A stretch of DNA of 60,041 nucleotides, counting the filler, from Hausera hauseri (taxonomy: Eukaryota): the NCBI GenBank assembly GCA_046269625.1. It is 10 parts of 10 records of this genome, joined end to end, with 100 filler letters (N's around TTAATTAATTAA, not from the genome) between each part and the next. Parts side by side here need not be neighbours in the genome. Positions count along the whole stretch, not along the records: positions 1 to 12,980 come from JBJURY010005567.1; 9 more parts are not named here. One strand, given 5' to 3'. Every line of letters begins with the position of its first letter. Positions within the stretch are counted from its first letter, which is position 1. This document shows positions 1 to 58,440 of the stretch, one piece after another. Both the position numbers and the translations under genes were made by a program. The notes beneath the pieces were generated by a model. It saw nothing but the letters and a program-made list of their open reading frames with translations. It had not been told where the DNA came from and made no database searches.

Positions 1-777
1 TAATCTGACTGGTACTCTTCCTGTCGTTACTCTTGTCAAAATGTTACTAAGTATGATATTTGGATTAAAGTCCTCTTGTGGCTCAAAATATACCGGATGG
101 TCATCCTCTTCGCGGATTTGAGCATAAATTAGCATTTCGGTTCTATGCGGAATATTTTCGTCAACGGTGATCCATACTTCTCCTTGCTTCCTTTCTTTCA
201 TTGTTTTAAAATCTTTCACTGGTCCAAGTTCAAGTAGTCTTCCAGTCTGTAAGTTTATTGCGATATTAAGTAATTATTTCAATATGTCGCAACTTAGTAC
301 TACATCGTCGTTTAATTGATCCATTACGGCAAACTCGTGTCGTGGAATTTGACCCATTAACTGGACTAAAGGATTCAATTTAAATTTTGGTTTGGATTCT
401 TGCCCGAAGGCTCCTATGCTGCCTGGATCTGCTGAGGATGCGGGCTGCAGTTGTTTTCGGAGTGTCGGCGGTATTGATTCTAACTTGTTAAACGATTTCT
501 CTGATCCAGTGTCTATTAAGGCATATACTTTCCAATCTTCAATAGTAACTTTTGTAAAGGATCTTCCTTCCATAACTGACCTATAACAACTCGACACGTC
601 TTTTGGTCGTTTAATCGAAGAAATATTATGTCCGTTTATCGTTATCTCTGGTGATAAAATAATATTTTCGGTCAGCTGTTTCAGTTCTTCGTTAGAGTAT
701 AAGTCGTTAACTGCCATGTTATTTGCATTGTTTCTGATTAATGGTTCTTGTAGTATTGAATTTTGGAACGATTTCAC
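1..777 (-). pseudogene. pro: Retropepsin (aspartic protease) and start of pol region
   Basis: VYALIDTGSEK active-site motif and DDVVLSCDIL (ILG.D.L-like) motif; the frame continues past TAA at 274-276 to the window edge. Confidence 0.88.
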
Positions 778-789
778 TCCTTGCGTTCC

Positions 790-3065
790 TCAGACTGTTG
801 ATCTTGTTTCTATATTCCGAACTATCCTCGGTGAGTATAATATCTTATGGTCATCTTGTACTCTTCTTTGATTAGTTATCTGATTTTTCTTTAAGACTCC
901 ATATTGTCTTGTTCCTTCATAAGGATCTTCACTGCTGAAGGGTTTCTGACAGAATGCCGATCTATATGACATCATGGATGTTTTGTCACAATCTTTGTAT
1001 ATCGCAGCCGTTGGCGGCATGATAGGTAAGGGTGCTGTAATTATTGAATACATTCTATGTCTATTTTGTCCGAGGACTGCTTCTTCTCCATTAGACTCGT
1101 CATCATCTGAATCATTTCTTTGCGTCATTGGTTTCTTAACCTTGCGTTTTAGGCGAAATATGGGTCTGGCTTGCCGTTTGTAATTATAGTAGCCGACATG
1201 GCGTTCAACGTCATTTTTCCATCGATTTTCCTCGTATGCTTTAAGCATTTTGCCAAACGGGGTGATAATTGCAGTTAAGATCTTGCAAAAAAATCCTGTT
1301 AGCGTGAATATTTCATACCCAATTATAGCCGCTTGAATTACCGCCTTTACTAGTTGTACCATGAAATAGATTGCTAAGAATCCAGATGCAGCTTGTCCAA
1401 AAATTAAAAATCTTCCCCATATTTTGTAAAGTATTTCTGTGGTTACCCGTTGGTAATGGTTTGCACCAAACAGGGATTCCCATTTCGCTTGGTATTGAGT
1501 ATCATCTACTACTGATGCCATAGCTCGATTTAGTTCGTGTGTTCGCTGTCGTGGAAAAGCAAGGAATTGTCGAAAAGCTTCGATTTCTTTGGGCCTGTAA
1601 ATGCCCTTTTGGGATGTGTCCTGAAACTTGTAATCAGTAATCCCTTTTGCTAAATTAGTTCCAGTTAGTTTCTTAGGAACGAGGGTTACACCTCCACTGG
1701 GTAAGCTTATCCTTTCTGTTTCGCTACGTCTAAACATCGGTTCACCCAAACTTGCTTTGCAATCCTTTAATATTGTAGGTTGTGTTGCGTTGTCTAGCAC
1801 TACTCTAGTAAGAGGCATGGCTAACCGTGGGGTATTCTGATAGATTACAGGGAGTTCTCGTATGCATCGTTTTTCTTCCACTTTAATTGGTACATTTCTT
1901 CTCGCATTCGTATGTCAATAAAACTTCGCAAGTAACTCGATCAAAAATTCCTTCTCTCATGGGATTAATCGGTGAGGATAACTCCGGATTCGCATAGATA
2001 AGAGCTAATTTTGTTCTCATAATTTCCGTATCTAATTTGCAATCGTTAGTTATCATTTTATGGTATAGTTTGGCTATCCCGACTTGGCCTTTATAATAGA
2101 AATAATCATCTCGGTTTTTCAGATAATCTTCTATTCTGATATCTTGTGTTTCTAAATTGTAGGTCTTCGCGTTTATCTCCGTTTCTGTGACGAAGAACGC
2201 TTCGTAGTTAGTAGTAAACATTACCACTTCACATCGTGAAATCATTTTCTTTTTTATGAATTTCAATCCATGTGGCTCAGAAATTAATATCGTAGGTGTA
2301 TGATGCTTCGATACGTCTTTACGTGCTCTTGAACTGGTGTCGGATTTATCTACGTATTGTTTTCCGGTAGTTTTATTAAATTTTAATTTCTTAATTTTAA
2401 TAAAATTACGGGCTTTTCCGGTGGGCGGTCCCCATATGATGACAACTTCTGAATGCACAGGTTCCGTCTTGCATGTGAAATTTTTGATTCTCATTATATA
2501 GCTTAGTGACGCTATGGAACATTACTTTTTGAACTCGCATTTCCGATTCGTAAAAGTCTACTACCACTATGTTTGCTTCCAGTCCTTTTCCGGTATCGTA
2601 TTCAGTTGTACTACAGTGTCCGTTATGCATATCCAGCCTTCCGGATACTATCTTGCACGCTCTAATTATTTTTCCGGGCTGCGTTTCCAATTCCATGTTA
2701 TCCCATTTTAGTCTTCCAGTTTCTCGGGCTTGTTTACAATGTTGCTTTATCAAATTCATGGGAATTGAGAGAGTTGTTGGTTTAATTATTAAGGAGTGTC
2801 CGTGCATTAGTCCACAATGAAAAATACTACTAGATCGTCTCAGCATACATTCCATGCCATCCAGAGATACCAACTCATGTTGTTGGTATATAAAATAGCT
2901 CTTCTCTTTTGTTTCCAGTTTATGTGGTTTGGCATATTCACATGATTCTAAGTCCATTAATGAATACTTTTGTCCAAGTTTGAATCTATTACAGTCATAA
3001 ACGGTAACAGCACCCATTTGTTTTATTAACATTATTATGGTGAGCAAACTGCTTAACCAATTAGA
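790..3065 (-). pseudogene. env: Envelope glycoprotein, chuvirus-G/herpes-gB-like (class III fusogen), split by two frameshifts
   Basis: Signal peptide WLSSLLTIIMLIKQMGA, then VYDC..YSLMDLESC, EC..R..FHCG..GHS, SG..D..GHC, NDC, ECEK..C..ELPVIY; hydrophobic C-terminal segment (~1260-1420) and cytoplasmic tail. Cys pattern matches the chuvirus-like G family as I recall it. Confidence 0.82.
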
Positions 3066-3203
3066 TTCGTTCTTCCGGTTGTTGTTATCCGTTGTCCTCA
3101 AGTTGCGTATGACGTCTTTGAGTCTATTGCTATTTCTCTTGTCTGCTTCCTTGTTAAACAATTTTGGTTAATTTACTTCACACGGGAGTTTTCTAGACGC
3201 TTT

Positions 3204-4541
3204 TCATGCCAAACTAGTAGCTCGATTTAGTTTATTTTCTCGATTAGGATTTGTCTTAATTGCCAAGTACAATAATACTTTTCTCAGCACTTCTATCGTA
3301 TTCTCCACCATGATCTTCTCGACTATTGCGTCGTCAGTTAGGCTACTTTTTGACAGTTTGAAAAGTGAACTTCTTATTGTTCTAGCTGCGTTAAATATTG
3401 CCTTTTCTTTCTCGTCTAATGTATTTCCGCGGAGACTCAAATAATTTACGATACGTATTAAATTTTTCATTAACTCGCTTAATTCTTCATTATCTGTACT
3501 GAGAGTAGGAATTGACATTTGTCTTAATTCTTTAATCAGTTCTCCATTATAATCAATTTCTTCTCGGGGCTTCCTGGGTCTGCCTACTGTGCGTTTCGGT
3601 TTCGGAGCATTCGGTGTCATTCCACTTAACGGTACTAGATTCTTGTCATATTGCTCTTTGTCTTTATCTGTTTGTAAATACTCGAAATACATTGCAGTGT
3701 CTCGTACTCCCATGATTTGTCCTACGCATTGTTCCGTTTTAGCCTTCCGTGTGGCTTCTTTTTTCGTCTGTTCATTGGCTATTATTACTATTATCCGATT
3801 TGTTTCGTCGGGAATAATTGCGACATCTATTAACTGTTTTAAATCGTCGAGTATTCTTCCTCTAAAGTAAAATCTGTAATTTAGCTCATTTGTTCTGCCA
3901 TTATTTACTAACCATTCTCTTACGTCCTTTACGTAGGAATGAGTAGTTAACTCACATTCTTTTATTTCCATCCACTCGGATGATATCATTATTTTCATCA
4001 TTACCTCAGGTTTAGTCTTCAAAATGTCTGCATATTTTTTTATCAGAAGTTTCGGCACCGTGCTGTAAATCGTATTCTGGCTAGATAGTTTAGTCAAGGT
4101 CGGAATAAGTTGTTTGAGCTTATTTTCAGTCATATTCACCTTAATTGATTCCATCAAGTCCTTCTCAGTTAACGCTGAGTCTAGGAGCATCTCTACATTG
4201 AATTTCCTATTCTGAAGATACGTTTGTATTTCATCGAGGTGCACTGGAGTCACCGGATTTTCTGTCGCTATTTCTTCTAAATAGGCATTCCATTCTGGTT
4301 CATTCTCAATATCTGGAAGTCCATAGTCTACTATAGCTGTGTTCGTTTTTTGCACATTTTCTCCAATTTCTTTAAATTTTGGTTGTATTTCTTTCATCTG
4401 CGTAGTTCGGAAACCTATTCCTTTTCCGCAAGCATACTGAATCTTTTTCAGTAATTCACCTAATTCATTAGAATCGATAAATCCTTTTTGGTTATAGTTA
4501 GTTGGTTCAGTAATTACATCTCTTTGCCATCTTTGCACCAA
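3204..4541 (-). pseudogene. Accessory polyprotein segment: ubiquitin-like domain (~3780-3998), AT-hook-like KRTVGRPRKP (~3567-3596), helical domain positionally equivalent to the Bcl-2-like domain of copy B
   Basis: MKIMISSEW...VKDVREWL...YRFYFRGRILDDLKQLIDVAI...IIVII aligns by eye to ubiquitin (MQIFVK...IENVKAKI...[21 protein letters not shown]...LHLV). Confidence 0.65.
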
Positions 4542-5709
4542 TTCTCGTTTATTTTTGATCTCTGACTCAGCAAAAGCATATTTGTTCTTAAAAGCTCTTT
4601 CGTTAGTTCGTCCAACCTTGTTGCTCTTTGTTTTGTTCTAATACATGTTTCTTCTACTTTCTGTATCTTGGGCATCAGTTGTCTCATTCTCGCATAACTG
4701 ATTTCCTCCATTTCTAACAGTAAATAACCTAACTCGTACATCTCATTTATAGTTTTTGAGTCGGGGTCCATTGCATCCGATAATTTCTTCACGAACTTGT
4801 GTTCCTGAAAGATAAAATGTGGGTCGTCTATTATTTTTGTCAACTTGGTATGAAAATTCTGATCTGATTCGGTCATCCATTCTTGTGGTTTATGCAAAAA
4901 TTTTATTGCCTCTGTTAACGTATCTCGATGTCCTGGGCAAATGTTTAAAATGTCAATGTCTTGATCAAATATCTCGTTGATCAGTTTTTCTGTTAAGTGT
5001 TGGATTCCTTCCAGTCGAGCAATCTTCAATTCTGAGGTTACATCGTTAATCATATTCCGTTTTTCCGTGAAGTTCGTCTCTTCGATCAATTTATATATCT
5101 TCTTCAATATCGACGTTTCTTGTTCCTTTCTCATAAATTTTAGTCGCTTAAACGCTTCGAATTGTGTGCGGATATCAATTTCTATTTGCATTGTGGCTAG
5201 GTCATGTGCACTTTCTTCTAGCTGTCTCTTTATCATTGGTTCGCTTTCCGGAAATTCTTTCCTGCGGTCTTCTACTAGTTTACTTAATCTCATTATTAAT
5301 TCGGACCATTCCGACAATTGATTTGCGATTATAGGTTTCGCCATTATAGCCTTGTCTAACATCTTATACGCATCTTTTAATTAATCATCTGGTCCCTTTA
5401 GGAAAATCATAATCCGGCCAACATAACTAAACTCGTCTTTATATTCGTCCAATTCTACGATGCAAGCTCTTATCACGTATTGAGTTTCTTCATGATTTGG
5501 AAACATAATTCGGTTTCTTAAAGTATTGATCTGGGATCTTTTCTCATTCTCATTTTTGATGCGGCTCTCTAAGTCTGCACATCGTCTATTCTCGACGAAG
5601 GCAATTTTTATCATTTCCATTAAAGGAGGAATGTCTACCGAGTCTATACCCAGTATTTCTAGATCGATATTAGTTCTATTGCTAACCGGTTTTTCTCTAA
5701 GGTGATTTG
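4514..5709 (-). pseudogene. Helical/coiled-coil accessory segment of the polyprotein, unknown function
   Basis: ORFs 5381-5620 and 4514-5362 are in the same frame (one TAA between); E/K/L/I-rich, no recognised motif. Confidence 0.5.
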
Positions 5710-7903
5710 TTATTGTAAAACGTATTTGTCCATCTTACGTTCTAAGTTACGGGCTGCTCTCTTCAACTTGGGATTAGCTTCTAAGTTGGATAGCATCGTT
5801 TGTACTTCAGCGACTTTTACGTTGACATTCTCTTCGTCTTTGCTCCATCCTTCTGAGAATTCTACTCCACTTTTGATCCATGACTCTAATTCGTGATTCC
5901 ATTTTATCAACGTATCCCGTGGCACCTCTTCCGGTTGTTTCATTTCAATTGCTTCATCGTATTTCCCTTCGCTCCACAATTTTAAGCTCTTGTATAATTT
6001 CTCCGCAAACTGTTGTTCCTTACCGGATATATCTGTTTGTCTACTAATCTGTTTAAGTCTTTCTAAATTGTGTCTGAGTATCTCTGGATTATAACATCTG
6101 ATTCTCATTTTCTTCAATTCATCGGCGTTCTTCCATGAACGTCGGACTTTCCATTTCCTCGCATCTGGATCATTATCATCTGTTTCTTCCTCACCAGTGG
6201 GAAGCGGGCAAATTTCATTTATCTCGTCATTAATATTTATCGTCTCTGGCGTTTCTAATATTTCTGGAATTCCTACAGGCGTAATAGAGATTTCTGAGGA
6301 CGAATCATCTCTTGGGATAGCAGTATGAAATTCTCCTTTTTCTTTTATGTCTCTTCTAATAGGAGATCGTGAGCGGGTCTTAGATTTTCTTTTAGGCGAT
6401 GGGCTTCTACCTCTGTTCTTCGTTATTTTGAGAACTAAGGGCCCAATAAATTCACTTTCAACTTCATCCGTCGTTTCTTCTGGGTTAGGCTTTGCGGCTT
6501 CTATTTGCGCATCTAGATCTATATTTTGTGATGTAGATGGTTTCTCGGACTGTCCTATTCCTTGCGGAGCAGACTTCTTGCGTGCCATATTCGTATTATT
6601 TGGTGCCAACTCCCATTCTTCTTCCGTTTGTGGCTCTCGTAATCCATGATAGACTTCCATTAGTCGTAATTTTTTTTCATATTCTTTCCTAGCGTTCATA
6701 ACTTGAAGATTAGTAGTTTCACTTAAATTTCGTACAGATCTTCGTAAATCTTGCATCTCAATGATTAGGCTTATATTACCTCGTTTACCATAAATGGCTT
6801 CTAAGTTATTTTTAATCATGCTTGTCTTGTTTGGTTCAGTAAATATGACACTTCTAGGATTTGGGCAAGACCTTGCAATGTGTCCTTCTTTTCCACATGT
6901 AAAGCAGATTAAGTTCCCATTTCGACCAATCTTTTGTCTGCCATCTTCATTTACAGGCGATTTTGATCTATTTGTATTCTTATTCTGTCTTTGTGATGTT
7001 TGTCTACTGTCCCCGTCATATCGATTATCGTTACTTCGATTATCAGTGTATTTAGTGTTATATCAATAACTACTTTGGTTTCTATCTGAGTTGTAGCTCG
7101 ATTTATTATACGAGTTATATGTATTTCGGTTACTACTAAAATTCCTATTGTTTCGCTTATTTCTACCTTTGTTATTTCTATTATCGAAACTTCGATTTCG
7201 ATTATTATTATTAAATCGTCTGCTATCTTGATTATCATTTCTATTTCGATTATTGCGGTCATTATTTCTTTCATATTTGTCACGTTGCTGGGCGTATCTC
7301 TCTAACGCCATTTCTAAGTCTTGAGCTAATTGCAGCGTCCGTTCAAAATTATCGGGTCTAGCCAGAATTAATTGTTTAACTAAATCTCTTGACCATATGC
7401 CGTTTATTAACTGAGTCGTCATCATGACGTCTAAATCTGGTGGCGTTGCTTTTTCCGCGGCTTCACGCTCCGCTTCTGTTTTAGCTTTTGCTACGTTAGC
7501 TATTCTTAAGGTACTCACATAACTATTAGCGAGTTTCTTTAATGCAAATGCAAACTGGGTAACCGATTCACCTTTCTGTTGCACTCTATTCTGAAATGCC
7601 ATAAGTTTCTGTTGTGGCGTTACTGTAGGCAATAACTTACGATTTAATGCTCCTACCAGGGAGGACCAAGATTTCTTTTCATCATTAGTAAGCTCACTAT
7701 AAGCATCGGCAGCTAAATTCTTAAGATATAGTGATAAGCGTTTTATTGTTACTTCAGGAGTAAGACTAGCACCCTCCGCGTGCAACTTATAAGTCCTTAA
7801 AAAGTCGTTTAGTCCGTCCGGATCACAGTCGTATGCCGGAAGGTTCAGAGTCAAATGTAAAAATGTCGAGCTTTTGTGATACGGCTGGATTCTCCGCTGC
7901 CAT
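5710..7903 (-). pseudogene. gag: Gag (capsid, N/R-rich linker, CCHC knuckle, RS-rich C-terminal extension)
   Basis: LSLYLKNLAADAY..W..L, RVQQKGESVTQFAFALKKLA (retrotransposon gag); CFTCGKEGHIARSC at ~6865-6906, in frame with both 7063..7854 and 5710..6819 across one TGA at 7063-7065. Confidence 0.9.
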
Positions 7904-8201
7904 ATCTATTTTATTCGTAGGAGGTTTATCCTTAAGTCGAGGAAGTTTAAACTTGCCGTTTGATTCTAAATTGATTTTAGTCTCAGAATTTGTTCTGTAT
8001 ATTACTCTGCGTGTCTCACGTATAGGAAATTGATTTCTACCGTTTATTTGGTTCTCAATGTTCGTCTTAATTTATCTATTTATTTTAGTCTCTGATAACT
8101 TATATCCCACAATTTATTTTTCTTTCGATTAATCGGTGTATTGGCGCTGATGGCCGATATGTCGTTATTTAATTCTGAATAGTACTAGCTAGGCACAGAC
8201 T

Positions 8202-8219
8202 GTCCTGATACGGTCGCCA
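8202..8219 (-). promoter_or_regulatory. Primer-binding site, probably tRNA-Arg(TCG)
   Basis: Minus strand TGGCGACCGTATCAGGAC, 2 nt after LTR end ...TAACA; near-complementary to the 3' end of metazoan tRNA-Arg(TCG) (...TCCTGTCACGGTCG-CCA, from memory). Confidence 0.8.
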
Positions 8220-8221
8220 AA

Positions 8222-8747
8222 TGTTATATATTAGGGTGGCCCTTAACTCACGCCCCTTATATATAACGTATTTACTCTTGAAATTAGATATTTCTGTGCA
8301 AATTCGGTCTAACGTTATCGTTAAACGAATGTGCCTAGTATGTCGATATTACGTGAATGCAAGTGTGGTGAATACAAATCCTGTGCGTAGTTTGAATACT
8401 TCTATTTACCTATATAGTTTACCGTGAATTTTAGACTTAGTGTAACTCAAATCAGCCTTAACGGCCGATGAAAAACTATAGTGGGATTTTAAAAGAAAAT
8501 AAATAATATACCGATATAATGAACACCAAGTTAAGAATCACAACGATTTCGATAATGTCTATAAGACTGACAGTAGGTAGAAAGNNNNNNNNNNGAAGTT
8601 ATTCAAATTCTGTTAATACAAATCGACGCTACAGTCGAAGAAAAACTAAGTAACTTCACTTAAAAATCTACACCTTATATACATTTTCGTTGACGTAGGT
8701 GTTATTTACCCACTTAATTGTTTCCGATTTCCGGCAGTTGTTTAACA
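8222..8747 (-). repeat. 5' LTR of copy A (distal end tentative, spans the 10-N gap)
   Basis: TGTTA at 8222 abuts the PBS; candidate inverted terminus TAACA at 8743-8747. Confidence 0.6.
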
Positions 8748-9826
8748 ATTCTCAACAATTAATAATCACACATGTCAGCTCCGAACAATGTCTAGACAAT
8801 ATTCACGATCAATATTTTCAATGCAATGTACACAATTTGCGACTAATGTAGCAAAATCTATAATTAATATGCATAATTTAATAGCTAAACGATTACTGTT
8901 TTTACAAGAACCAATGGTTCATTATTTACAACATTTATATTCTAACGAAATAAAAAATCTATCGAATAGTATGTGATTACTTATGTGCATAACCAAAATT
9001 TATGAGAAAATACGATTGATAATTAGACGAAATGCATTTTACATTGACAGAACATCAAGAAAAACAGTATAAATAGAGTATTTAAAAACGTAGTCCGAGA
9101 AATTGAACGAAACCTTTGTCAAGTTCAAAATATTGGGCAAATGTCGAATATCTATAATTTTGTTATTGTGACTTCACTATCAAAAACATTTTCATATCAT
9201 TACTCAGCTTTGTATTTTGAACGGATCTCCGATTATTTGTTGTAATAATGACTCTAATTTACAGTAAAATTCGCTTCTTTGTAAGTATTGTAATTTAACA
9301 TGACATTAATACAATTGCCGGATCCACCCGCATTCATAAAAACCACAATATAAAAATGCCAAAACAGTATTTGGTTAATCGACCTTTTCAATTCAAATAA
9401 CATTGTTGAATTTCAATGGCAGGTTAATAGAAAAAAGAGTTGTGAAAGCAAGTTAAAAATAAAAAGCATCTGGAAAATCCATTAGCACAGAAACAATGTG
9501 TGCCGTTTTCTTTGTTTCAGTTTCGACATACAAACATATTGGATGAGTCATTGGATTATGTGCAATTTACCAGACGTTGAAAATAATTAAAAATTTGATG
9601 AGATTAATTTGTAGTTGACATTTTAAAATATTACTTACTTGTGTTATTAATTGTTCAATCAAAGTTAAAATAGTGAAACAAATAAGTACAAAGGACTTCG
9701 GTATTTAACGATGTATATCACAAAAATTCACCATTATATCAAGTAATTCCATCAGTTACTAATTCATAATGAAATGCTGCAGATTTTTATTAGATGTTTA
9801 TCTTATTGCGCATTGTTTTTGTAGTA

Positions 9827-10102
9827 ACGGATTTTCCAGATGCTTTTATTGTACCATCTGTCAAGCATGAGTTTATATGCAGGAAGTGCCAGATGATTTT
9901 TGCTGATGAAGATTCAGTGGTACGTCATCAGAAGTCCTTCTGTTACTTCGGACATCATTTTACTGACCCGCAAGAAACAGTGCTTCGAAAAGCAGTGAGC
10001 AACTACACTTGTGTTGCCTGCAATGTGGTTGTTAATGGGAATGAAGCACTTGGCCAACACCTTCAGTCGAGCTTGCACAAAGAGAAAACAATCAAACAAG
10101 CA
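9827..10102 (+). pseudogene. ZFHX4: Fragment encoding the two C-terminal zinc fingers of vertebrate-type ZFHX4
   Basis: EFICRKCQMIFADEDSVVRHQKSFCYFG..DPQETVLR..YTCVACNVVVNGNEALGQHLQSSLHKEKTIKQA closely matches the vertebrate ZFHX4 C-terminus as I recall it; similarity stops abruptly at KQA; locally higher GC than flanks. Confidence 0.8.
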
Positions 10103-10624
10103 TTCGAGAACTTGGATTATCCATATGAACAGGATAATAAAGAGTATAATTAGTAAGGTTATTGGAAAACACCAATGTGTAAGCAATTGAGGCCTGCATA
10201 ATACGGGGAGCGATATCTTTATAAATAACCAATTGCATAATTTATTAAAATAATTAATTTCAAACCATTTATAAGAATTTAAAATTTTCATATCATTAAT
10301 GCACTTTATTAAATTGAAAAGACTTCAATATAAAAATCCATACTCCATACTCAAACGAGCGGCTAGCGCTTTAAAGAGTGAGGATTCAAATTGTCGTCCT
10401 TGATCGGAAATGAGATGTTTTGGTGTTCCTAAGCGGCTGACCCATCTGAGGATAAAGGCTTTAGCTATGATTGTGAGGATATAATTGAGAACAGAAATTC
10501 TAACTTTAAATTAGAAACATTTTTAAATTTAAATTAAAAATTTAATTTAAAAGTAATATTAAAGTCTGATTTAAGTTTGGAAAATTTGTTTCCAAATAAC
10601 TATTTTGGATTATAATAAAAATTT

Positions 10625-10945
10625 TCAATAACTGTTGTTACTTTTCAATGAGCAATTACAAACAATCAAGTTCTGATTTAGCGGACAGATCAGGGGCAGG
10701 GGTTTTCCAACCATACTCAAGCTGGGCGACGAGGTGGACTGCGTGGATGCGAATGCGGCCAACAATGGTATCATCTTGGATATTAGGAAATGGTATGATT
10801 TCTGGGCATGTTGTTGATTCGTCAAGCATGTTGAGGAAATAAGTGAATCCTCGGTTAGGCATCAGAGGACCAACGAGATCGATATAAGTATTGTCGAAAT
10901 GTGACGTTGTTGGGAAATTATATAATGGTAGTTTAATGTGTCACG
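10625..10945 (-). pseudogene. Gypsy integrase fragment
   Basis: HFDNTYIDLVGPLMPNRGFTYFLNMLDESTTCPEIIP = F..HIDLVGPLP.S.G..YLLT.ID..TRWPEAIP motif. Confidence 0.75.
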
Positions 10946-12574
10946 AAGTTTCACATTTTCAATTCAATGAGAAACCCGGAGTTTTACGTCTCTACGCACG
11001 GCTGGCCAGATTACTGGCCAGATACCGGAAGATGGGAGTCTGTCCCAATTGAAAATAAAAATATTGAAAATTTAAATTAAAAATACAAAGAAATTATTTT
11101 TAAAATGAAAAAGTACACTTAATTAATGTACTGATGACTAATTCCAGGCATGATTCATATGAGTCATATGGGTTGCCCAATTCACCAGACACTAGATGAC
11201 TAATTTCAAAAAATTAAAATTCAAATCATGTATTGGTCGAATTCAGCAGTATTTAAACTGCCATAACAACAATACCATAACCATAATTTCTCGAAACCAT
11301 AACTACACACAACCGTAGTTCCTACACTTGGAATTTTTCGTTATCTGATGCGATCATTAACTCCGACGAGTTCAAATAGTTCGAGGAGAGAAATCTCGCC
11401 TCTTATTGATCGCTGCGGTGTTTGACTGTAATTCACAGAAGATCCACCGATCCGATTATTGATGATCATAAAACTCCGATACTTTGAGTATACTTATAAA
11501 CTGCCGAATATTCTCGTTGATCAAAATATTACCATGAACAGAACAAATCATCTAAATGAAAAGGATTTCCGGAGCATGCATGCTCTGAACGACCATGAAA
11601 ATCCCATGGGTGAGTAAAAATTATTGTATCTTAATTTTCTTTATTTTTTTGACTAAAATTTGTTATGACTAGAATAAATAAGATTACATAAGCCACATAA
11701 TTATTTGTACCTTATGTTTCTTTAATGAAAATTTGTAATTCTGAAATTGATGAAGTTGCAAGTAAACACAAGAGTTTACCGAAGCACCGTCGAACCAGCC
11801 TTGAAGATGATTCACTCAGAATATAATGCTGATTAACAAAATGAACATTTTCGAAAAACAAAATAAAATGCTTACAAAAAATTCATGTAGCAATACGTTA
11901 AATTCCAATAAACATTTTAATCCCAGTCACAATCAACCATCGCAAATGTTCCATTTGTATGAAGAACTATAATTTCAAATTGAATGAGAATTGGTTTATG
12001 CATGTCATTTTAGGAATGTTTAGTTGGAAATTTTGTGAAAAATATATTTTCCACCGATTATTGATATTTTAGTGAGGCTTTTGACTTGTGGAACACGTAC
12101 AGTGCTTTGATTCAGTTTGCAAATCAAAATATTGTAAATGATGTGTATGTTTGCATATCATATTTTAATTATATGCATCCAAAATTAAGCAAAATTTGTA
12201 TTGAATTTTACTTGTCTGACACAGAATTCGTGAAATTTTTACGGTCTCACGGTTGGAAATTTGTCACTAAAATGACAGTTTCCTTGTAAGAGAATGGCAC
12301 TTTTTATGTAAATGGAAGAGTTAAATTAAAAGTTTAAATTTAGAGCCGAAGTATTGTGTGACCAATAAAGTAATGGCCAACCCTGCCTTAATATTACTTT
12401 TATATTAATTTCGCCAAATGAATGTGCTACACACGCGTATGTATGAAATTATGCTTATGTTGATATAAATTAATTCTACACTATAAACATTTACAAGAAT
12501 GGCTATTTCTATGTCCAATATTTACATCAGCATTAGTTATACTTTTTTGTCAAATCACAGATGTGGGAGCGTTT

Positions 12575-12790
12575 TAAATTCACAACACTACAATACAACA
12601 TTTCACAAGACACTTGAAATTTCTATAAAAATTCTTTCGGAAACTCATTCAAACCTCACAGCTATCCTCCCTTTTGTACTACTCGGGTGGCGCAACATTC
12701 CATTAACCACCGCAGGTTGTGTACCTGTAGAAACTCTTTTTGGCACTACAGTACATGCACTTTTTGAACTTACCGATCTAGACAATACGT
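12575..12790 (+). pseudogene. Gypsy integrase core fragment, same family as 24640-24860
   Basis: FHKTLEISIKIL...LPFVLLGWRNIP..TAGCVPVETLFG; homologous to ERFHRTMKISIKIL..LPLVLLGWRNTP. Confidence 0.75.
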
Positions 12791-12980
12791 CAACTGATTA
12801 TCTGACATCTTCCAGTAATAATAAGTACCATTCAAAATTTTCACTGAAAACTGTCAATAATCATTCGGTCAGCAAAATGAGTCATAAAAGAGACAGTAGC
12901 AATAAACCATTTAATTCTGTTGCATTGATTTTTACTGAAAAACAGTAAAATTCAATACAACGGAATTAAATGGTTTATTG

Positions 12981-13080
12981 NNNNNNNNNNNNNNNNNNNN
13001 NNNNNNNNNNNNNNNNNNNNNNNNTTAATTAATTAANNNNNNNNNNNNNNNNNNNNNNNNNNNNNNNNNNNNNNNNNNNN
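12981..13080. other. Artificial contig linker N44-TTAATTAATTAA-N44 (all-frame stop); same linker at 18713-18812, 23473-23572, 27896-27995, 33106-33205, 37415-37514, 44803-44902, 50300-50399, 55489-55588
   Basis: Nine identical 100-bp N/TTAATTAATTAA/N blocks; content changes abruptly across each. A separate 10-N scaffold gap lies at 8585-8594. Confidence 0.98.
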
Positions 13081-13449
13081 AAAAGTGATCCGCTGTACTC
13101 TACTCGTTTCGCTTCTGTCATTGGCAAATTCAAAGACGAAAGCAAGGGCAGCGTTCAATATCAAGAAGCTATTTTCTTACGTCCAAAATCATATGCCCTC
13201 AAAACCCAATCCAAACCAGTGCTCAAGTGCAAAGGAATCAACCTCAAGCAAACAGACTTACAATTCAGTAACTACTTGCAGGCGTATGAAACCGGTTGCG
13301 GCACTATGGTAGATCAAGAGCGAATTGGCAGTAAGAACCACCAGCTCATGACCATCACCTCAAAAAAGAAAGCACTGGATCCCTTCGATGACAAACGACA
13401 CTGGGTTGATAAAAACCATAGTGTCGCATATGGACATTATTCTATTTGA
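13081..13449 (+). mobile_element. pPolB: Polinton/Maverick protein-primed DNA polymerase B, C-terminus (copy 1)
   Basis: GKFKDE, FLRPKSYAL, KCKGI, KKALDPFDDKR, SVAYGHY motifs in one frame. Confidence 0.9.
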
Positions 13450-14608: not shown

Positions 14609-15700
14609 ACCTATATCGTGCGTGCAGATAGTCTTAGCACTGTCGCTAATTGCTTCATATATCTCAAAAACTCAAACCCAACGTGGGATGAGGAAACTAC
14701 GTTAGGTGACGTATATGGATTTCTAAGAAGTGGGCCAAAACCAAAAAACATAATAAAGCAAAGTAAGCCAACGGATGAAGAAATCCGAAAACGTGAAGAC
14801 CCTAAGCTGTTACGATCGATGAAGGCTTATTATTTCACGCCTGAGAATATGTGCGTTAGATTTAGAACTTGGAGACCACAGCACAAATTTGAAAAATTTT
14901 AAGTAGTATTGCATGATAAAGCGAGAAACGAAGTAAATAACTGTGATTTTGAACCCGGTGATTATGCACAATGCTGTGATATAAATTGCGGACGCATCTA
15001 CGTCCTTACTTATCGATTGTACCTAACGGATTCATCTGAAGTCCATGTCGAAGTAAATCCACAGCTTCAATTAGTTACGCCTATCCTAGACAGGCGATTT
15101 AAGTCAAAATTCGACGAATTGTTGCAATCTACTGATCCAAACATACGAGCGTTGGACGAGAATATCGAAGGATTTCGGTAAATAAGAAGAAACAATGCAT
15201 TCAAGTAGACGCTAAAACAGGATTAACTCTCGCACAAGACATTAGCATTATATTCGAGGCGGTAAATGGACAAACACCAAAAATAGAATACTGCTCCGTT
15301 CATAACGGGGTGCAACACCCGTGTTGTAAATTGCCAGTAAATCGAGAATTTAAGATAAGATTTGACTTATACCAAGTACGGCCAAACAAATCGAGCATGT
15401 GGTTGCGTACTTACCATCCAGAAAATAGAATATGGAGAATACCAATGAAAACGGCAACGAGAAGGCCAACCACTCGAATGAGTGCCATTACTGAAACCGA
15501 TACTTCAGAGAAAACACCTAAAAGAGAACTAGAAAATACACCTATTAAATATTCGGCCCACCGATATAAGATTGTGTCTTCTGTAGAAGTGATAGTAAAT
15601 TATGATATTCACCTAAGCTGCCAAACAACGTATAATAATCAAGTTGTGACATTACTTAAATATACTTATCAAACAGAATGCAATTTATTAAAACGATAAG
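14590..15700 (+). pseudogene. Post-integrase secreted/membrane Cys-rich ectodomain (second glycoprotein), decayed
   Basis: Signal-like SCVQIVLALSLIASYISKTQ directly after YNLR; Cys pattern and segments (QCC, PCCKLP, NYD..LSCQTTYNNQ.V) homologous to 35627-36720. Confidence 0.65.
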
Positions 15701-16238
15701 TCTTTTAGAGGAAAATAATGTTGCGAGTTATTTGGTCTGATATTTCGATCTTTCTAAGATCTTTCTACTCTGAAGATGATCTTAGAAAGATCAAAATATC
15801 AGAACCAAATAACTCGCAACATTATTGTCCCCTAAAAGACTTATCGTTTAATATACCATTAAATGTTGCTCCTAAAAAACTTCCATATTTTGAAATGTAT
15901 TAAAACCATAATAAGACTACATAATACAGGTATACGCACGAAATAAACAGAATCAAATGTTTACACTACGTACCTTAAGCGACGTTCATGCAGAACCACA
16001 TATATATGAAAATATAGACGATGAATTTACAATTCCAATCACTACATAAAAGCCAATGGGATTAACAACTTTACCAATCCTATAAATTGCCAAAAATTGT
16101 CATTGTAAGCGCCACAAAATCGAAGAAAGGGAATTAAGGGTAACGACACCCCGAGACGAAACCTATGATGAAATAACCTGACAATTACAGATCAGGTTAT
16201 GCTACCTACAAACAGAAAATTGGTTCTATTTTAAAACA

Positions 16239-17399: not shown

Positions 17400-18712
17400 C
17401 TGTCCTAGTGATTTTACCGAAAATCTTTAAAGTTTTTTTAAGTATCTGCCACTTCTCGGTTTGATATTTGAATCATCTTCGTCATTATTATTTTTAGCAT
17501 TTAGGGTATTATATGGCGAATTCTTCTCAATTTTGTTATTCCTTCCTTTAAGAACTTTTTTATTTTGCATCATGATTTGCAAGAAAACAACTAGCAACCG
17601 CTGGTATTACTGGTATTAGGATTTTCCATGAGCATCCTACTGCTGAATGTATTCTGTAAGCCTTACCGAGTATAATGAATATCGTTCGTAGAGCGCTGAT
17701 GATAAAATATATTTTTAAAAATCCTGAGGCAACTTGACCAAAATATATAAATTTTCCCACATTTTTTCCATAATATTTCGGGTGACTTTCTTGAAGTAGT
17801 CTTTCCCCATTAAATTTTCCCATTGTGGTGACCCATCTCCGTCCCACATTACTCTTGTTAATTCCGTTGTCACGCGTTGCCTCTGCTGGGATAACAATAA
17901 CATTCGTCAGTAGTCCTCTAATTTCTGTTGCGTATAAATTCCTTTTTGTGATATACCGGTAAGTGGTTCAAATTTCTGATTTCTTTGTAAATTAACCAGG
18001 CTTAATGTTTCTGGTTTCGTTAATGGTTCTCTTTTCGGCATTCTAATCCATTTGACTTTCAGTTTGAACATTGGCGACATATTAAAAGTACAATTGTCCA
18101 GCTGAGTTGGTCTTGCATTAGTGTCTAGTAATATTCTAGTTACTTTCACTACGTACTGAGACTCCATTTTATAAATTATTGGTAATTCTGCAGCACATTC
18201 CTCCGTTGGCCTAATGGCTACTTCTATCTTTTTACACTCAATAGTTATCAATACTTCACCCATCACTCTTCCGATCACTCCATCGCCGAATGGCATCACC
18301 GGAGCTACCATATCAGGATTGGTTATTACTAATGCCATCTTATTCCGTATTATTTCATAATTCAGTTAGCATTCGTTCAGTATAATTTTCCTATATAAAC
18401 TTCTGATCTCTTTCCTGATGTATTTGATTAGAAAGTCGATTTTATTATAAAGTATTGAGTCAATTTTATATCCTTCTTATCTATTTTTGTTTTAGCTTGA
18501 GCTATCTCTTTAGTCGAGAGGTGTATACCTTTATAGTTGGTTTTAAAATTTTCTTCATTACACTTATTAATCGTTCCAATGATTTTAAATCGCATCAATT
18601 CTTCGGGGTTTTCCGAATATACCACCGTTGCTACTTCTGTCATCTTTACTTCTTTAACTCCTTCCTTATATGTTGTCGATTCTCTTTCGGCCGTTTTTCC
18701 TACCGTCTTATT
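17400..18712 (-). pseudogene. env: Third copy of the class III env glycoprotein (C-terminal half, TM, tail)
   Basis: NPDMVAPVMPFGDGVIGRVMGEVLITIECKKIEV..ECAAELPIIY..SQKGIY..GKFIYFGQVASGFL parallels 790-2100; 18428-18643 parallels 50400-50599. Confidence 0.85.
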
Positions 18713-21700: not shown

Positions 21701-21789
21701 ATGTACATAAGAAAAAAAATCACAGTAGTAGTATTATAGACAATAACCAGCCGTAAATCAGGCTGAGGGTCAGGCTAAGTATATACACT

Positions 21790-22565
21790 TTTGAGAGCGA
21801 GTCGGGGTAAAGGACGGTGAGATTTTCTGGTAAGGTCGTGTTCGTAAGGGTATTCCCGCTGGTTTAGGGCGACTTCGTCGCGCTTGAGGCTGTTTTTGGG
21901 ACCGAGTCGGGGTATGGGAGGGCGAGCTTTTCTGTTAAAATCGCGTTTCTTAAGGGTACTGCCGCTGGTTTAGGGCGACTTCGTCGCGCTTGGGTATGTC
22001 TTTGGGCCCGAATCGGGGTAAGGAACGGTGAGATTTTCTGTTAAAATCGCGTTTCTTAAGGGTACTGCCGCTGGTTTAGGCCGACTTCGTCGAGCTTCTA
22101 GATGTTTTTGGGAGCGAGTCGTGGGAAGGAACGGTGAGCTTTTCTGTTAAAGTCGCGTTTCTTATGGTTGCAGGTGTGGTTTAAGTCGTGTTTAGTGACA
22201 AGCAAGGGGAGATATTTTCTGCTAAGGTCGTTTTCCTTTGAGTGCTGCCGGTAGTTTTGGTTGACTTAATCGCGTTTGTGGGTGTTTTTGGGAGCGAGTC
22301 GGGGTAAGGGCCGGTGAGATTTTCTTGTAAAGTCGCGTTTGTGGGTGTTTTTGCGAGTGAATTGGGGTAAGGACCGGGGTATTTTTCTGTTAAAGTCGCT
22401 GTTCTTATGGTTGCGGGCGTGGTTTAGGACAAATTTCTCATGTTTAGTGACAAGTAAGGGGCGATATTTTTTGCTAAGGTCGTGTTTCTTAGAGTGCTGA
22501 CGCGAGTTTAGGTCGACTTCTTCGCACTTGTGGATGTTTTTGGGATTGAGTCGGGGTAAGGGACA
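21790..22565. repeat. Tandem satellite, ~105-106-bp G/T-rich unit, degenerating distally
   Basis: GAGTCGGGGTA-like anchor at 21799, 21904, 22010, 22116, 22296, 22548; GCTGGTTTAGG.CGACTTCGTCG recurs. Confidence 0.9.
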
Positions 22566-23465: not shown

Positions 23466-23572
23466 AACAGCGNNNNNNNNNNNNNNNNNNNNNNNNNNNN
23501 NNNNNNNNNNNNNNNNTTAATTAATTAANNNNNNNNNNNNNNNNNNNNNNNNNNNNNNNNNNNNNNNNNNNN

Positions 23573-24166
23573 TCATACATTGGTCAAGCTGTTCTCGATC
23601 TTTCAAAGTTGAGAATGTATGAGCTTAACTACATTGAGTTGGAAGCATATAGGCAACAGTTCAATTGTGAACTTAATATTGTTGCTGGTGACACTGACAG
23701 TTTCTTTCTTGAGTGTCGTGGAATTGATCTCCGGTCTCAACTTTTACCTGCCATGATAACAAATGAACAGTTGGACACTTCTAACTACGACGCTACAGAC
23801 CCTCTTTATTCTGCTCGTTTTGCTTCAGTAATAGGAAAATTTAAAGATGAAAGCAAGGGCAGTGTTAAATATGAAGAAGCAATCTTCCTTCGGCCAAAAT
23901 CATACGCCCTCAAAACACAAACGAAACCAGTGTTGAAATGTAAAGGTATCAATTTGAAGCAAACCGATTTGCACTTTGACAACTACGTGCAAGCATACGA
24001 AAATGGTTGTGGGACAATTGTTGACCAAGAACGGATAGGAACAAAGAATCACCAACTGATGACAATGTGTACAAAGAAGAAAGCCCTGGATCCATTCGAT
24101 GATAAGCGACACTGGATAACAAAGAACAAAAGTGTCGCCTACGGACATTATTGTACACATGAGTAA
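23573..24166 (+). mobile_element. pPolB: Polinton pPolB C-terminus (copy 2), open frame
   Basis: IGQAVLDLSKLRMYE, AGDTDSFF (motif C), LDTSNY, GKFKDE, RPKSY, KCKG, DDKR, AYGHY. Confidence 0.92.
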
Positions 24167-24470: not shown

Positions 24471-24639
24471 GATTTTCAAAATCAATTTTTGATTTTTAAA
24501 TTTCCACATATAAATTTCCCATACAATATTGATTATCGATCCTGGGGAGGGTTGGTGTGGTGTCCTCCCTTCCACCTACTAACCGGACCACCATTTCGAA
24601 CCCGATAAAGTTGCACAAGCGCAACTTCCATGAAAATGT

Positions 24640-26575
24640 TGGTAAAAAATTAAAACAAGCCTCAGCTGGAGCACAACCTGTAGTGGTGAATGGCGTGTTG
24701 CGCCAACCGAGTAGGACAAGAGGAAGAACTGAGGTCCAGTTATGAGTGTTGTTAGCCAGGATTTTTATAGAAATCTTCATGGTACGATGAAATCTCTCGA
24801 GAAGACCATTTGCTTGGGGATGGTACAGTGTCGTATGGAGATGGGCTATCCCCAAGTGCTTTACAAAAGATTTAAAAAGAGCAGCTTCAATTTGCGGACC
24901 CTGGTCCGTTATGATGTGACTTGGTGAACCAAAACGGCTGACCCATATTTTGATAAATGCATCTGCTACTGAGTCTATGTTGGTTGGTCCAAGCGGAACG
25001 GCTTCAGGTCAGCGGGAAGCACGATTCCCCATGGATAAGATGTATTGATAAGATCGAAATGCACAGTGTCAAAACGGGACGTACAACGAAAGTGGTAAAG
25101 TGGTGGTTTTAGGTGTTTGTGAACCTTGTATTGCTGGCATGCTGTACATCCCTTGACACAGATCTGTACATCTGTATGCATTGTTGGCCATACAACGTGG
25201 CGTTGCAGTAGGAGAAATGAGACTTTTGAACCCGGATGGTAAAGAGAGTGAAAGTAGTTGAAAGCTGTCTTTTGTAGCGATGGAGCAAGAATGATCTTCT
25301 TTTTGGTCGAGTTGGAAGTGTCATAAGCGAAGCCATCGATGATTTCAACAAATTTAAAAGCTTGGAGAATGTCAGACGATGGCTGATTGCTTCTCAGGAT
25401 CTCAGAGGAGAAAAGTGGCTAAACTGTAATTAAGTTAACTAACAGCGAAAGAAAATCCGCTACTAAATTTTCGGTACCTGAAATATACTTCATGGAAAGA
25501 GTACACGTCGACAGGTATGATATCTGTTTTCTTGTCCGGGTGGTGCCTGTTTCAAAGTCATTATATGAAGTAGAGGCTTGTGGTCGGTTTGGATGGTAAA
25601 TTGACGTGAAAGAAGCAAGTGCTTGAAATGCTTTACCGCTAGAACTACAGCCAAGAGTTCACAATCGAATGTTAAACATTGACTTTCAGGTTGCGTGAGC
25701 TTTCGGGAATAGAATTCTAATAGCTCATGGACGCCATTATATATTTGATGTAATATCGCACTAGTGGTAGAGGTATCGGTAGTTAGTATGAGTTCCGCGT
25801 TGGGTTTTGGAAAAGCCAAGATTTCCACAGTTTTCAGACCTTCACGAAAGCAATAAAATTGATTTACTAGGTCGTGAGTCCAATGGATTAATTGTCTTTT
25901 CTTCCCGGATGAGAGGTGTGCGAAAGGTGCCGTTAGTTCGGAGAAATGTAGCACGTATTTATGTACGAAATGCAATGTCCCTAGAAAACTCCTCATGTCG
26001 GTAGTGGTGATAGGTAATGTAACATTTTTCAATTGTTGTAGGCGATCAGGATCGAGCGAATGACCTTCGGGAGTAATTATGTGGCCCAGGAAGTTGACGC
26101 GTTTCTGGAAGAAATTGCATTTGGCAAAATTAATTTGCAGGTTGCTTTGATGCAATCTGTGGAAAATGATTCTAAGGTGCTCATCATGTTGTTTGATCGA
26201 GGTGGAAGCGACTAATATGTAATCTATGTATGGGTGAGTAAAATCAGGACCACAAAGAACGGTGTCAATGTGGCTCTGAATGGTCTGAAATGCACTACGT
26301 AGGCCGAAAGGCATGAAGATGTACTCATAAAGGCCAAATGGTGTGATGACAGCAGCTTTTGGAATGTCATCAGGTGCAAGAGGAATTTGATGGTAGGCCT
26401 TGTGCAAATCAATAGTAGAGTAGGCATTGGAGTTATTGAGACTATGAAGAATATCCTTAATGAGTGGTAGTGGATAGGCATCTATAATAGTCAAATTGTT
26501 TAATTGTCGGTAGTCTCCACATGGCCTGTAAGTACCATCTTTCTTTACTACTACATGAAGAGGGGAGTGTGGTGC
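24640..26575 (-). pseudogene. pol: Conventional Gypsy pol (RT-RNase H-integrase), decayed
   Basis: SPLHVVVKKDGTYRPCGDYRQLN, MPFGL, YIDY (YIDD mutated), TTDTS, ELLAV, TDHKPL, C..CQ, HPQANGLLERFHRT. Confidence 0.93.
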
Positions 26576-26809
26576 CCACATCGACCGCCGCCCTCTGGCC
26601 CATTCGGTTGGGCACGGCCGGGCGTCCGCTGCTAACGCCTCGGGCCCATAGGCAGGCAATCATTCAAAACTTTTGACGAGGCATAGTGACTCGATGAAAA
26701 GTTTTAAATCAAAGTCCCTCAAACAACAGTCGAATGCTCACTCTGTAAAAAGTTCCAACATGGCCAAATCCCAACAACTCAGTGATAACATCCGAACTCG
26801 AAATATATT

Positions 26810-27078
26810 ACACAATCGTAGGCGTTGTTGGCGGTGCATACAGCAGTGAAACATTGGTCATGTCGAAATATTTGCAGAACTCAAAAATTCCACAGATTTC
26901 CGGTCATTCAACATCGGATGAATTCACGGGTAACATGAACAATCCATTTCTGTTGAGACTCGTTTCATCCGGCAACTACCAAGCAAGTGCATTACTGGAA
27001 TTTGTCAAATTGTTAAAAATTCGGCATATCACTATTGCGTATCAAGCCAACACGATTGAAACGGGGTTGTTAAACTGA
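26810..27078 (+). pseudogene. Class C GPCR (mGluR-like) Venus-flytrap domain fragment
   Basis: IVGVVGGAYSSET...KIPQISGHSTSDEF...FLLRLVSSGNYQASALLEFV = VIG..SS..IPQISY.STS..L..FF R.VP.D..QA.A motif. Confidence 0.75.
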
Positions 27079-27091
27079 TTTTATAACACTC

Positions 27092-27895
27092 ATGAGTAAA
27101 ATGACCAAAATGAATAGTGTCTTTCCGTTGGAGATTTTGAGACATTTTTCTTGTTTCACGAAGCGTTTGCTTATGTTTTGTTTTTGCTTCGGCTTCATTG
27201 CTTTAATTATATGCCTAAACTTTGTGCACTGTCGAAAATTAATTAAGGTCCATACAATTGTACGACACGGTGAAAGAAGTCCATGTTTTTCCTATGAAGA
27301 CGATCCATATCGACATTTATTGGAACGAAGTTTAGGCCAATTGACAGACAAAGGTATAAATCAATTAAAGGAAGTTGGAAAGTTTATTATACAAGAATAT
27401 GATGAATTAATTCCAGCTATTTTTCACAAAAAAACAAGTTTACATCAGAAGTTCGGATACTGACAACTATAATAAGTGCAATTGCAGAAATAAGCACGTA
27501 ATTTGAAAACCAAATAGTGCCCGTCCATTCCGTTTTGAAGTCTTTGGATTATGAGCTAAAAATGACGAGCTATTGCCCAAAACATAAAAATCTCTCGTCC
27601 CATGAATACAAATCCGACAAATATAAGAAAATCATAGAATGACTTCAGCCTCTTTTCTATTTCAAAAAGCTAAGAAAGGGCACGAATTTAAACCGACTCA
27701 ACTTGAAAATGGCTTTGCTCATACAGTACAATATCAGCGTTTCTCGGTCATCTTGATGCATTCAACAATTTGAAACCGCCATTGGCAACGGCTGTCATTT
27801 TGAAATTTAATCATGATCCAACATCAGATTCTGATGATATATTCAGTGTTAGATTGTTACTAAGAAACGAAACAAACAGATCGCCGTTTGTCTTG
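27092..27895 (+). pseudogene. Secreted histidine acid phosphatase (ACP2/ACPP-like), intronless, frameshifted and internally deleted
   Basis: Hydrophobic N-terminal segment, RHGERSP catalytic motif, GQLTDKG..Q..G; downstream PVHSV, CPK, FAH, KPP, RNET segments. Confidence 0.8.
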
Positions 27896-44440: not shown

Positions 44441-44485
44441 TAAATATTTGTTATAAAAATAAAAGCTTTTTTGTATGTCTTTTTA

Positions 44486-51325: not shown

Positions 51326-51429
51326 ACATACCCATTATGCCTTGTCTAGGAGTGTTCGACTGAGTCACAGTTGGCATATCAATTAATCTTTCTCTTTCTC
51401 CGGACCTTGTTAGGCTGGTCATCAGACTG

Positions 51430-57176: not shown

Positions 57177-57202
57177 AAGCGTTCAGACATATTTGGATAG
57201 CC

Positions 57203-58438: not shown

Positions 58439-58440
58439 AA

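What the first reader, a model, noticed from the sequence alone, without database searches (positions are those of the whole stretch)
9810..10153. Vertebrate-like ZFHX4 fragment embedded in an AT-rich invertebrate-type contig
Seen: ~92 uninterrupted codons, higher in GC than the flanks, with sharp ends, preceded by an acceptor-like TTTTTGTAG (9816-9824) and given a new 16-aa tail and stop. Recalled: the peptide is very close to vertebrate ZFHX4, more than I would expect for invertebrate Zfh2. Inference: host-to-parasite DNA transfer (for example from a fish host), possibly exonised, or a chimeric/contaminant assembly.
Basis: partly seen in the sequence, partly recalled or inferred. Interest (0 to 1): 0.72.

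Follow-up and report, generated by a model that had tools for sequence, protein, structure and literature searches.

The report
Fish gene scrap in flatworm assembly
A 273-base, practically unmutated piece of a fish gene (zfhx4) sits inside DNA that is likely from a parasitic flatworm; it is most likely host DNA stitched in during sequencing or assembly, though a very recent real pick-up of host DNA is not ruled out.

Summary
Bases 9830-10102 encode 91 residues, 90 of 91 identical to three database proteins and 96-98% to named percomorph zfhx4 (human 73%), with no private change. The piece is cut from inside the coding sequence. The flanks are AT-rich and not CpG-depleted; a PI4KA on another scaffold groups with parasitic flatworms (100/100).

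New here: the left join lies in a 37-nt inverted repeat. Its other arm (9462-9498), in non-fish DNA, matches the fish for 21 nt. One low-depth run holds the left flank but dead-ends 7 nt into that shared core, and its word share fits 'fish part absent' better (weak). The right join could not be examined with reads.

Best reading (0.65): a host-DNA chimera joined through that ~20-nt match. Rival (0.28): real, very recent capture at a break, with a fold-back copy of the junction. Exonisation has no support: the 16-aa tail is expected by chance (P about 0.3) and no upstream exon was seen.

The scan noted a similar fish scrap (GART) on another piece of this genome; I did not check it. Interest is low unless reads span both joins.

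The parts
9829..10102 (+). Percomorph-fish zfhx4 coding DNA, 91 codons from 9830, with the two C-terminal C2H2-type zinc fingers (about residues 3273-3362 of a 3500-aa fish protein)
   Evidence: 90 of 91 residues identical to P0003, P0004 and P0164; 97.8% to Nothobranchius, 72.5% to human. Pfam zinc fingers. The X3 contig fits 9829-9890 with 1 difference in 62 and runs on upstream into fish codons.
9811..9847 (+). Right arm of a 37-nt inverted repeat: 18 nt of non-fish DNA, then the first 19 nt of the fish piece
   Evidence: 89% complementary to 9462-9498; all 4 mismatches lie in the first 18 nt (9819, 9823, 9824, 9828).
9462..9498 (-). Left arm of the inverted repeat, in non-fish DNA; its outer 21 nt (9462-9482) equal the fish sequence, including the Met codon where the right arm has Thr
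   Evidence: and the X3 loose end. No fish likeness beyond the core (201-391 of 400 shuffles score as well in 8 of 8 settings). X1 has depth 3.9-4.5 in the two bins over it.
9816..9824 (+). Acceptor-like TTTTTGTAG; use as a splice site not shown
   Evidence: Seen in the sequence; background counts; the AG is one of the places where the two arms differ.
10103..10153 (+). Non-fish read-through tail of 16 codons and stop
   Evidence: P = 0.30 by chance.
8595..9828 (.). Left flank, AT-rich (28.5% GC, CpG o/e 1.24), partly repeated in organism A
   Evidence: X1 contigs: 343 nt exact over 9493-9835, and 501 nt with 4 other letters and 2 gaps over 8907-9404; X2, X3 and X5 show nothing on it.
10340..10940 (-). 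Decayed Gypsy-type integrase piece, ending about 240 nt from the fish piece and antisense to it
   Evidence: 46-49% amino-acid identity to the element at 24496-25418.

Best explanation
The 273 bases are practically unmutated fish zfhx4 DNA, and they were most likely joined to flatworm DNA during library amplification or short-read assembly rather than in the living worm. Shown: fish origin, no private amino-acid change, non-vertebrate flanks, and a 19-21-nt exact match between the start of the fish piece and a local inverted repeat. The second join and its homology are untested. The acceptor-like site and the 16-aa tail would then be accidents of AT-rich DNA.
For: End branch 0 in the tree; every residue is shared with some fish protein; 61 of 62 nt identical to X3. 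A 19-nt match within 1 kb of a random insert has P of about 3e-8, yet about 1e5 exact 21-mers are expected between an assumed 100-Mb worm and a 750-Mb fish genome, and a k-mer graph holds them all at once. X1's contig ends at 9835, 7 nt into the shared core, with nothing laid beyond. X1's word share of 0.64 fits 0.62-0.69 (fish part absent) better than 0.75-0.84 (present), if the right flank is covered like the left. No target-site duplication (longest shared word 4 nt). The scaffolds are 4-13 kb, and 273 nt is a usual short-read fragment size (own knowledge). Fish DNA in a fish-parasite assembly is documented (PMC10898089, passages); earlier host-to-schistosome transfers were refuted or contested (PMC13155389, passages).
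Against: Only about 2 in 10,000 19-mers of the window have an inverted copy within 1 kb, so a chance join landing in such a repeat is costly. All 4 arm mismatches fall in the non-fish half (P = 0.046), as if the fish-like core had been copied later. Two joins are needed, and FCS-GX's authors expect internal chimeric contamination to be rare (said of inter-kingdom cases). X1's gap proves nothing: depth is about 3, there is another hole near 9405-9427, and the tool drops human-like contigs (X2 and X5 also laid nothing). The share argument fails if the AT-rich right flank is only 25-43% covered. X1 may be the source sample.
Confidence: 0.65

Rival explanations
1. Real, very recent and functionless capture of host DNA at a double-strand break. 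The fish fragment would have been joined by a short imperfect match. While the resected left flank was refilled, the new strand would have folded back on a native 16-nt imperfect palindrome and copied 21 nt of the new junction to 9462-9482. The long match would then be a result of the insertion, not its cause.
For: It explains the inverted repeat, the perfect outer and 78% inner half, the fish Met codon kept in the left arm and the abrupt end of fish likeness there. X1 appears to hold the left arm and holds 7 nt of the core on the right arm. Palindrome-perfecting template switches occur in break repair in yeast (10.1101/2023.08.09.552703, abstract). X1 depth over 9493-9835 (3.2) is under half that over 8907-9404 (8.5), which could mean one haplotype only (p = 0.007 with assumed 150-nt reads).
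Against: No divergence from living fish was seen. X1 should then hold the fish part, and its share leans the other way (weak). The arms are 312 nt apart, far for a fold-back (own judgement). Germline capture of unique vertebrate DNA by flatworms has a record of refuted claims.
Confidence: 0.28
2. Real insertion that has been exonised: splicing to the AG at 9823-9824, or the ATG at 9794, would give a worm protein with two fish zinc fingers and a new 16-aa end.
For: The frame is open 9794-10153 and both fingers are intact. The exact acceptor-like 9-mer occurs once in the window and lies 5 nt before the join.
Against: Tail and leader are open by chance with P = 0.30 and 0.40. No + strand frame of 80 aa or more lies between 3870 and 9794, and only one donor-like site lies in 8600-9820. 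An intact frame is what fresh fish DNA gives without selection. The one laid RNA-type contig that fits is the ordinary fish sequence.
Confidence: 0.03
3. The whole scaffold is fish DNA (a duplicated zfhx4 scrap in a fish repeat region) that contaminates the worm assembly.
For: The flatworm marker lies on another scaffold. The retroelement proteins of this scaffold gave no taxon.
Against: CpG o/e is 1.09 for the scaffold against 0.38 in the fish piece. The integrase scraps are 69-74% identical in DNA to an element on another scaffold. X3 leaves the window at 9829 and shows nothing on the flank. A fish run should also hold its own zfhx4 copy, which would lift X1's share to 0.76 or more.
Confidence: 0.04

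Closest known systems
Teleost zfhx4 (zinc finger homeobox 4), C-terminal finger pair; nearest named: Nothobranchius kadleci A0A1A8BKD2, Oryzias javanicus RVE58870.1, Dissostichus
   Same: 96-98% identical over the aligned 70-91 residues; three unnamed proteins are 90 of 91.
   Different: Only 91 of about 3500 residues are present, with no other zfhx4 piece in the window; both ends are cut inside coding sequence.
Host DNA in parasite assemblies (2.0 Mbp of fish sequence in the salmon louse assembly; FCS-GX internal-contamination class; PMC10898089, passages)
   Same: Near-identical host sequence in a fish-parasite assembly.
   Different: Here it is a short internal span with two joins, one on an inverted repeat; contaminants are more often whole sequences.
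Claimed vertebrate-to-Schistosoma transfers (salmonid repeats, MHC, albumin), refuted or contested as contamination (PMC13155389, passages)
   Same: Host-like sequence in a parasitic flatworm data set.
   Different: This piece is physically embedded in parasite-type DNA in the assembly; reads have not decided it.
Xenopus-like 5S rDNA in the monogenean Protopolystoma xenopodis, proposed transfer (PMC12294053, abstract and passages)
   Same: Vertebrate host sequence in a short-read flatworm assembly, transfer versus contamination.
   Different: That is a multicopy rDNA unit with some divergence from the host; this is single-copy coding DNA with none seen.
Quasipalindrome template switching in break repair (10.1101/2023.08.09.552703, abstract) and amplification chimeras (PMC5794965, passages)
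   Same: They give the mechanisms for the real and the artefact reading.
   Different: Both were shown within one microbial genome, not between a fish and a worm.

Membership tests
Teleost zfhx4 sequence | Best matches are vertebrate ZFHX4, closest in teleosts | tested here: met
   9 of 9 named hits among 35 are vertebrate; the best are 96-99%; the window groups with percomorph rows at 90/90, not starred.
Teleost zfhx4 sequence | Whole gene with homeodomains and many fingers | tested here: not met
   4 of 4 longer fish proteins hit the window only at this one place.
Invertebrate Zfh2 orthologue | Best matches among invertebrates | tested here: not met
Genuine host-to-parasite DNA transfer | Donor and recipient of different lineages | tested here: met
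   Fish piece in CpG-neutral flanks; the flatworm marker is on another scaffold.
Genuine host-to-parasite DNA transfer | Junction-spanning reads in independent data | tested here: inconclusive
   X1 reaches 7 nt past the left join and stops; the right join was not examined with reads.
Genuine host-to-parasite DNA transfer | Divergence from the donor or drift to recipient composition | tested here: not met
   End branch 0; 1 difference in 62 nt; CpG still depleted. A very young insert would look the same.
Genuine host-to-parasite DNA transfer | Present in more than one individual or related species | tested here: inconclusive
   1 of 24 listed runs holds half or more of the words of 9000-10700, and it may be the source.
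Genuine host-to-parasite DNA transfer | Expression from the recipient locus | not testable with these tools
   No worm RNA run with raw reads was offered.
Library or assembly chimera with host DNA | Near-identity to living host DNA | tested here: met
Library or assembly chimera with host DNA | Shared word of about k-mer length at the join | tested here: inconclusive
   Left join: 19 nt shared with the right arm, 21 with the left arm, but the copy could be a result of insertion. The right join is unknown.
Library or assembly chimera with host DNA | Raw reads follow the two natural paths and not the join | tested here: inconclusive
   The fish path is shown by X3; a worm path beyond 9835 is not seen.
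LTR-mediated retrocopy (paper named in earlier notes, not read here) | Insert in the element's sense, between its terminal repeats | tested here: not met
   The nearest integrase scrap is on the opposite strand; no long direct repeat brackets the piece within 8500-12500.

The most novel reading that the evidence does not exclude
A parasitic flatworm repairs chromosome breaks with pieces of its fish host's single-copy nuclear DNA, often enough that several such scraps (zfhx4 here, GART elsewhere) segregate in the population; the 21-nt inverted copy beside this one is the scar of the repair itself.
Probability: 0.25. Interest if true: 0.65.

Novelty: not a real feature. Interest (0 to 1): 0.25.

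Why it matters
If it is an artefact, it shows that this assembly holds short host pieces inside worm scaffolds, which whole-contig cleaning misses and which mimic gene transfer; other fish-like findings in this genome need read checks. If it is real, it would be a rare case of single-copy vertebrate DNA entering a flatworm germline without a mobile element of its own. The rate and route of such uptake would become measurable by a genome-wide count of inserts and their junctions.

Tried and rejected
No whole genome is held, so no genome-wide count of fish pieces was possible. A scan of JGI metagenome contigs for fish zfhx4 DNA found 246 pattern matches and 0 confirmed, so synonymous divergence over the whole piece was not measured.

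17 of 24 runs hold 0.12-0.14 of the words, and the piece can supply at most 0.146, which would mean 0-1 mismatches. Only X3 was shown to lie on it, and X2 and X5 laid nothing, so this is not counted as evidence. The same goes for the 6 runs at 0.05-0.07.

An older decayed zfhx4 copy on the left arm: rejected, no better than shuffles in 8 of 8 settings. A MITE family for 9462-9847: unlikely, as X1 depth there is 3-4.5 while true repeats nearby reach hundreds to thousands. An old insertion duplicated later: rejected, since the arms differ by 11% while the piece shows no decay. Target-site duplication: none. Rfam on 8000-9828: 0 matches at E up to 0.1.

Taxon of the finding's own scaffold from its retroelement proteins: uninformative. 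The best env-like hits are 27-34% identical, 9 of 10 clusters are unnamed and 1 carries a bacterial label; the atlas gave generic gag clusters. The host could not be named below percomorph fish. Earlier notes near this place or like the left flank: none. Paper searches that gave nothing on this case.

Full report
Setting. The window is 10 scaffolds of 4-13 kb joined by N44-12 nt-N44 spacers; the finding lies on the first, 1-12980, which has a 10-N gap at 8585-8594. Most scaffolds hold retroelement, Polinton-like or hAT remains. A PI4KA frame on another scaffold has its three best hits in Schistosoma and Heterobilharzia at 40-42%. In a 19-row tree it falls in the Neodermata clade at 100/100, on a long branch. 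For the finding's own scaffold the evidence is indirect: CpG o/e 1.09, and integrase scraps 69-74% identical to an element on another scaffold. No whole genome is held.

The piece. The frame 9794-10153 is open. Codons 9830-10102 give 91 residues with two C2H2-type fingers. A search of longer proteins gave 35 hits among 53 candidates; the 9 named ones are all vertebrate. Three unnamed proteins are 90 of 91 identical; Nothobranchius is 97.8%, Oryzias 95.6%, salmonids 81-86%, human 72.5%. The window has an end branch of 0 and groups with the percomorph rows at 90/90. It matches residues 3273-3362 of a 3500-aa fish protein, and no other zfhx4 piece is in the window. Fish proteins run on at both ends where the window does not. 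A contig of run X3 fits 9829-9890 with 1 difference and continues upstream into the fish codons E-P-K-T-E-T-K-S-T-M. So this is fish DNA with no sign of decay, cut inside coding sequence.

The GC step is real (42% against 26-28%), but 16% of equal windows reach it. The acceptor-like 9-mer is there and unique; looser motifs occur 0.7-2 times per kb over both strands, so one within 10 nt of the join is roughly a 1% event, noticed after the fact. No upstream frame of 80 aa or more lies on that strand after 3870. The 16-codon tail has P = 0.30. Nothing shows exon use.

The left join. A 37-nt inverted repeat, 9462-9498 and 9811-9847, straddles it. Its 4 mismatches all lie in the 18 non-fish bases (P = 0.046). 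The outer 19 nt are the start of the fish piece. The left arm matches the fish for 21 nt, keeping the Met codon that the right arm has as Thr, and shows no fish likeness beyond. Such a match is not chance for a random insert (about 3e-8 within 1 kb). Either the match made the join, or the join was copied afterwards.

Reading A, artefact. With assumed genome sizes of 100 Mb and 750 Mb, about 1e5 exact 21-mers are shared between worm and fish. An assembly graph with small k, or a mis-priming polymerase, can cross at such a word where worm coverage fails. That some assemblers start at k = 21 and write 10-N gaps is recalled, not checked. Amplification chimeras link non-contiguous regions (PMC5794965, passages). 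The cost: only about 2 in 10,000 19-mers have an inverted copy within 1 kb, and a second join is needed.

Reading B, real capture. A break is patched with a host fragment; during fill-in the new strand folds back on a 16-nt imperfect palindrome and copies the junction 350 nt to the left. Palindrome-perfecting switches occur in yeast break repair (10.1101/2023.08.09.552703, abstract). This explains the repeat and the Met/Thr difference. The cost: it must be so recent that no change has accumulated, and earlier claims of vertebrate DNA in schistosomes were refuted or contested (PMC13155389, passages).

Reads. 24 runs were listed; 1 (X1) holds 0.64 of the words of 9000-10700. I laid 4 of the 24 on 8595-10055. 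X1 covers 26 of 30 bins: 343 nt exact over 9493-9835 at depth 3.2, and 501 nt over 8907-9404 at depth 8.5 with 4 other letters and 2 gaps. Nothing from X1 is laid past 9835. This does not decide the matter: depth is low, there is another hole, human-like contigs are dropped, and X1 may be the source. Its share fits 'fish part absent' (0.62-0.69) better than 'present' (0.75-0.84) if both flanks are covered alike, but fits 'present' if the AT-rich right flank is 25-43% covered. The right join could not be examined with reads, so its homology and its support stay open.

Surroundings. About 240 nt right of the piece a decayed Gypsy integrase ends on the minus strand; its other half lies at 12601-12741 on the plus strand. 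The fish piece is antisense to the near half, no long direct repeats bracket it and there is no target-site duplication. Capture as a retrocopy by that element is therefore not supported.

Earlier scan notes (unchecked leads): a 376-base fish GART piece and a probably fish Penelope element in the same genome, and several notes on chimeric retrocopies. The first fits both readings; the second suggests host contamination. I tested neither.

Literature. Ten searches were run. The one for zfhx4 with parasite and horizontal listed 3 papers, none on this subject by title and abstract start. Most subscription journals are not searched and no supplements were read. Read as passages: PMC12677651 (host-contig removal in a Gyrodactylus assembly), PMC12294053 (abstract and passages), PMC10898089, PMC13155389, PMC5794965. 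Read as abstract only.

Verdict. The lack of divergence, the dead end, the word share and the record of such claims favour a chimera; the inverted repeat favours a real event. I put these at 0.65 and 0.28, exonisation at 0.03 and an all-fish scaffold at 0.04. These weights are judgement, not computed. Interest 0.25.

Noticed in passing
window 32531-29443 (-): PI4KA aligns to fish and schistosome proteins over 500-700 residues almost without introns, with an in-frame stop at 31236-31238 and deletions towards the 3' end; looks like a decayed retrocopy.
   Followed up: partly
window 26749-27463 (+): A receptor ligand-binding piece (ANF_receptor) is directly followed by a histidine phosphatase piece; a possible two-gene patchwork.
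   Followed up: no
window 9031-9062: A 32-nt motif with depth near 6000 in X1 and many different loose ends on both sides; a short high-copy repeat with no Rfam match.
   Followed up: partly
window 10340-10940 (-) and 12601-12741 (+): Two halves of a Gypsy integrase on opposite strands, with a 24-nt inverted repeat (10539-10562 / 12388-12411) and an 81-nt imperfect palindrome ending the scaffold at 12900-12980.
   Followed up: partly
window 790-8071 (-): Retroelement with gag, a zinc knuckle and a Monjiviricetes-type fusion (env-like) frame; the best relatives are only 27-34% identical. Similar env-like frames seem to lie near 17560-18365 and 50814-51656.
   Followed up: partly
window 56811-58887 (+); 13033-13449, 23525-24166, 43782-44456: Decayed Polinton-like genes: adenain-type protease by Pfam; capsid and polymerase-like frames recognised from memory; the three latter stretches are 71-77% alike.
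   Followed up: no
window 15686-15853: A 168-nt palindrome, 89% perfect, between two retroelement remains.
   Followed up: no
window 21789-22564: Tandem-like repeats with a period near 105 nt, 70-85% alike.
   Followed up: no
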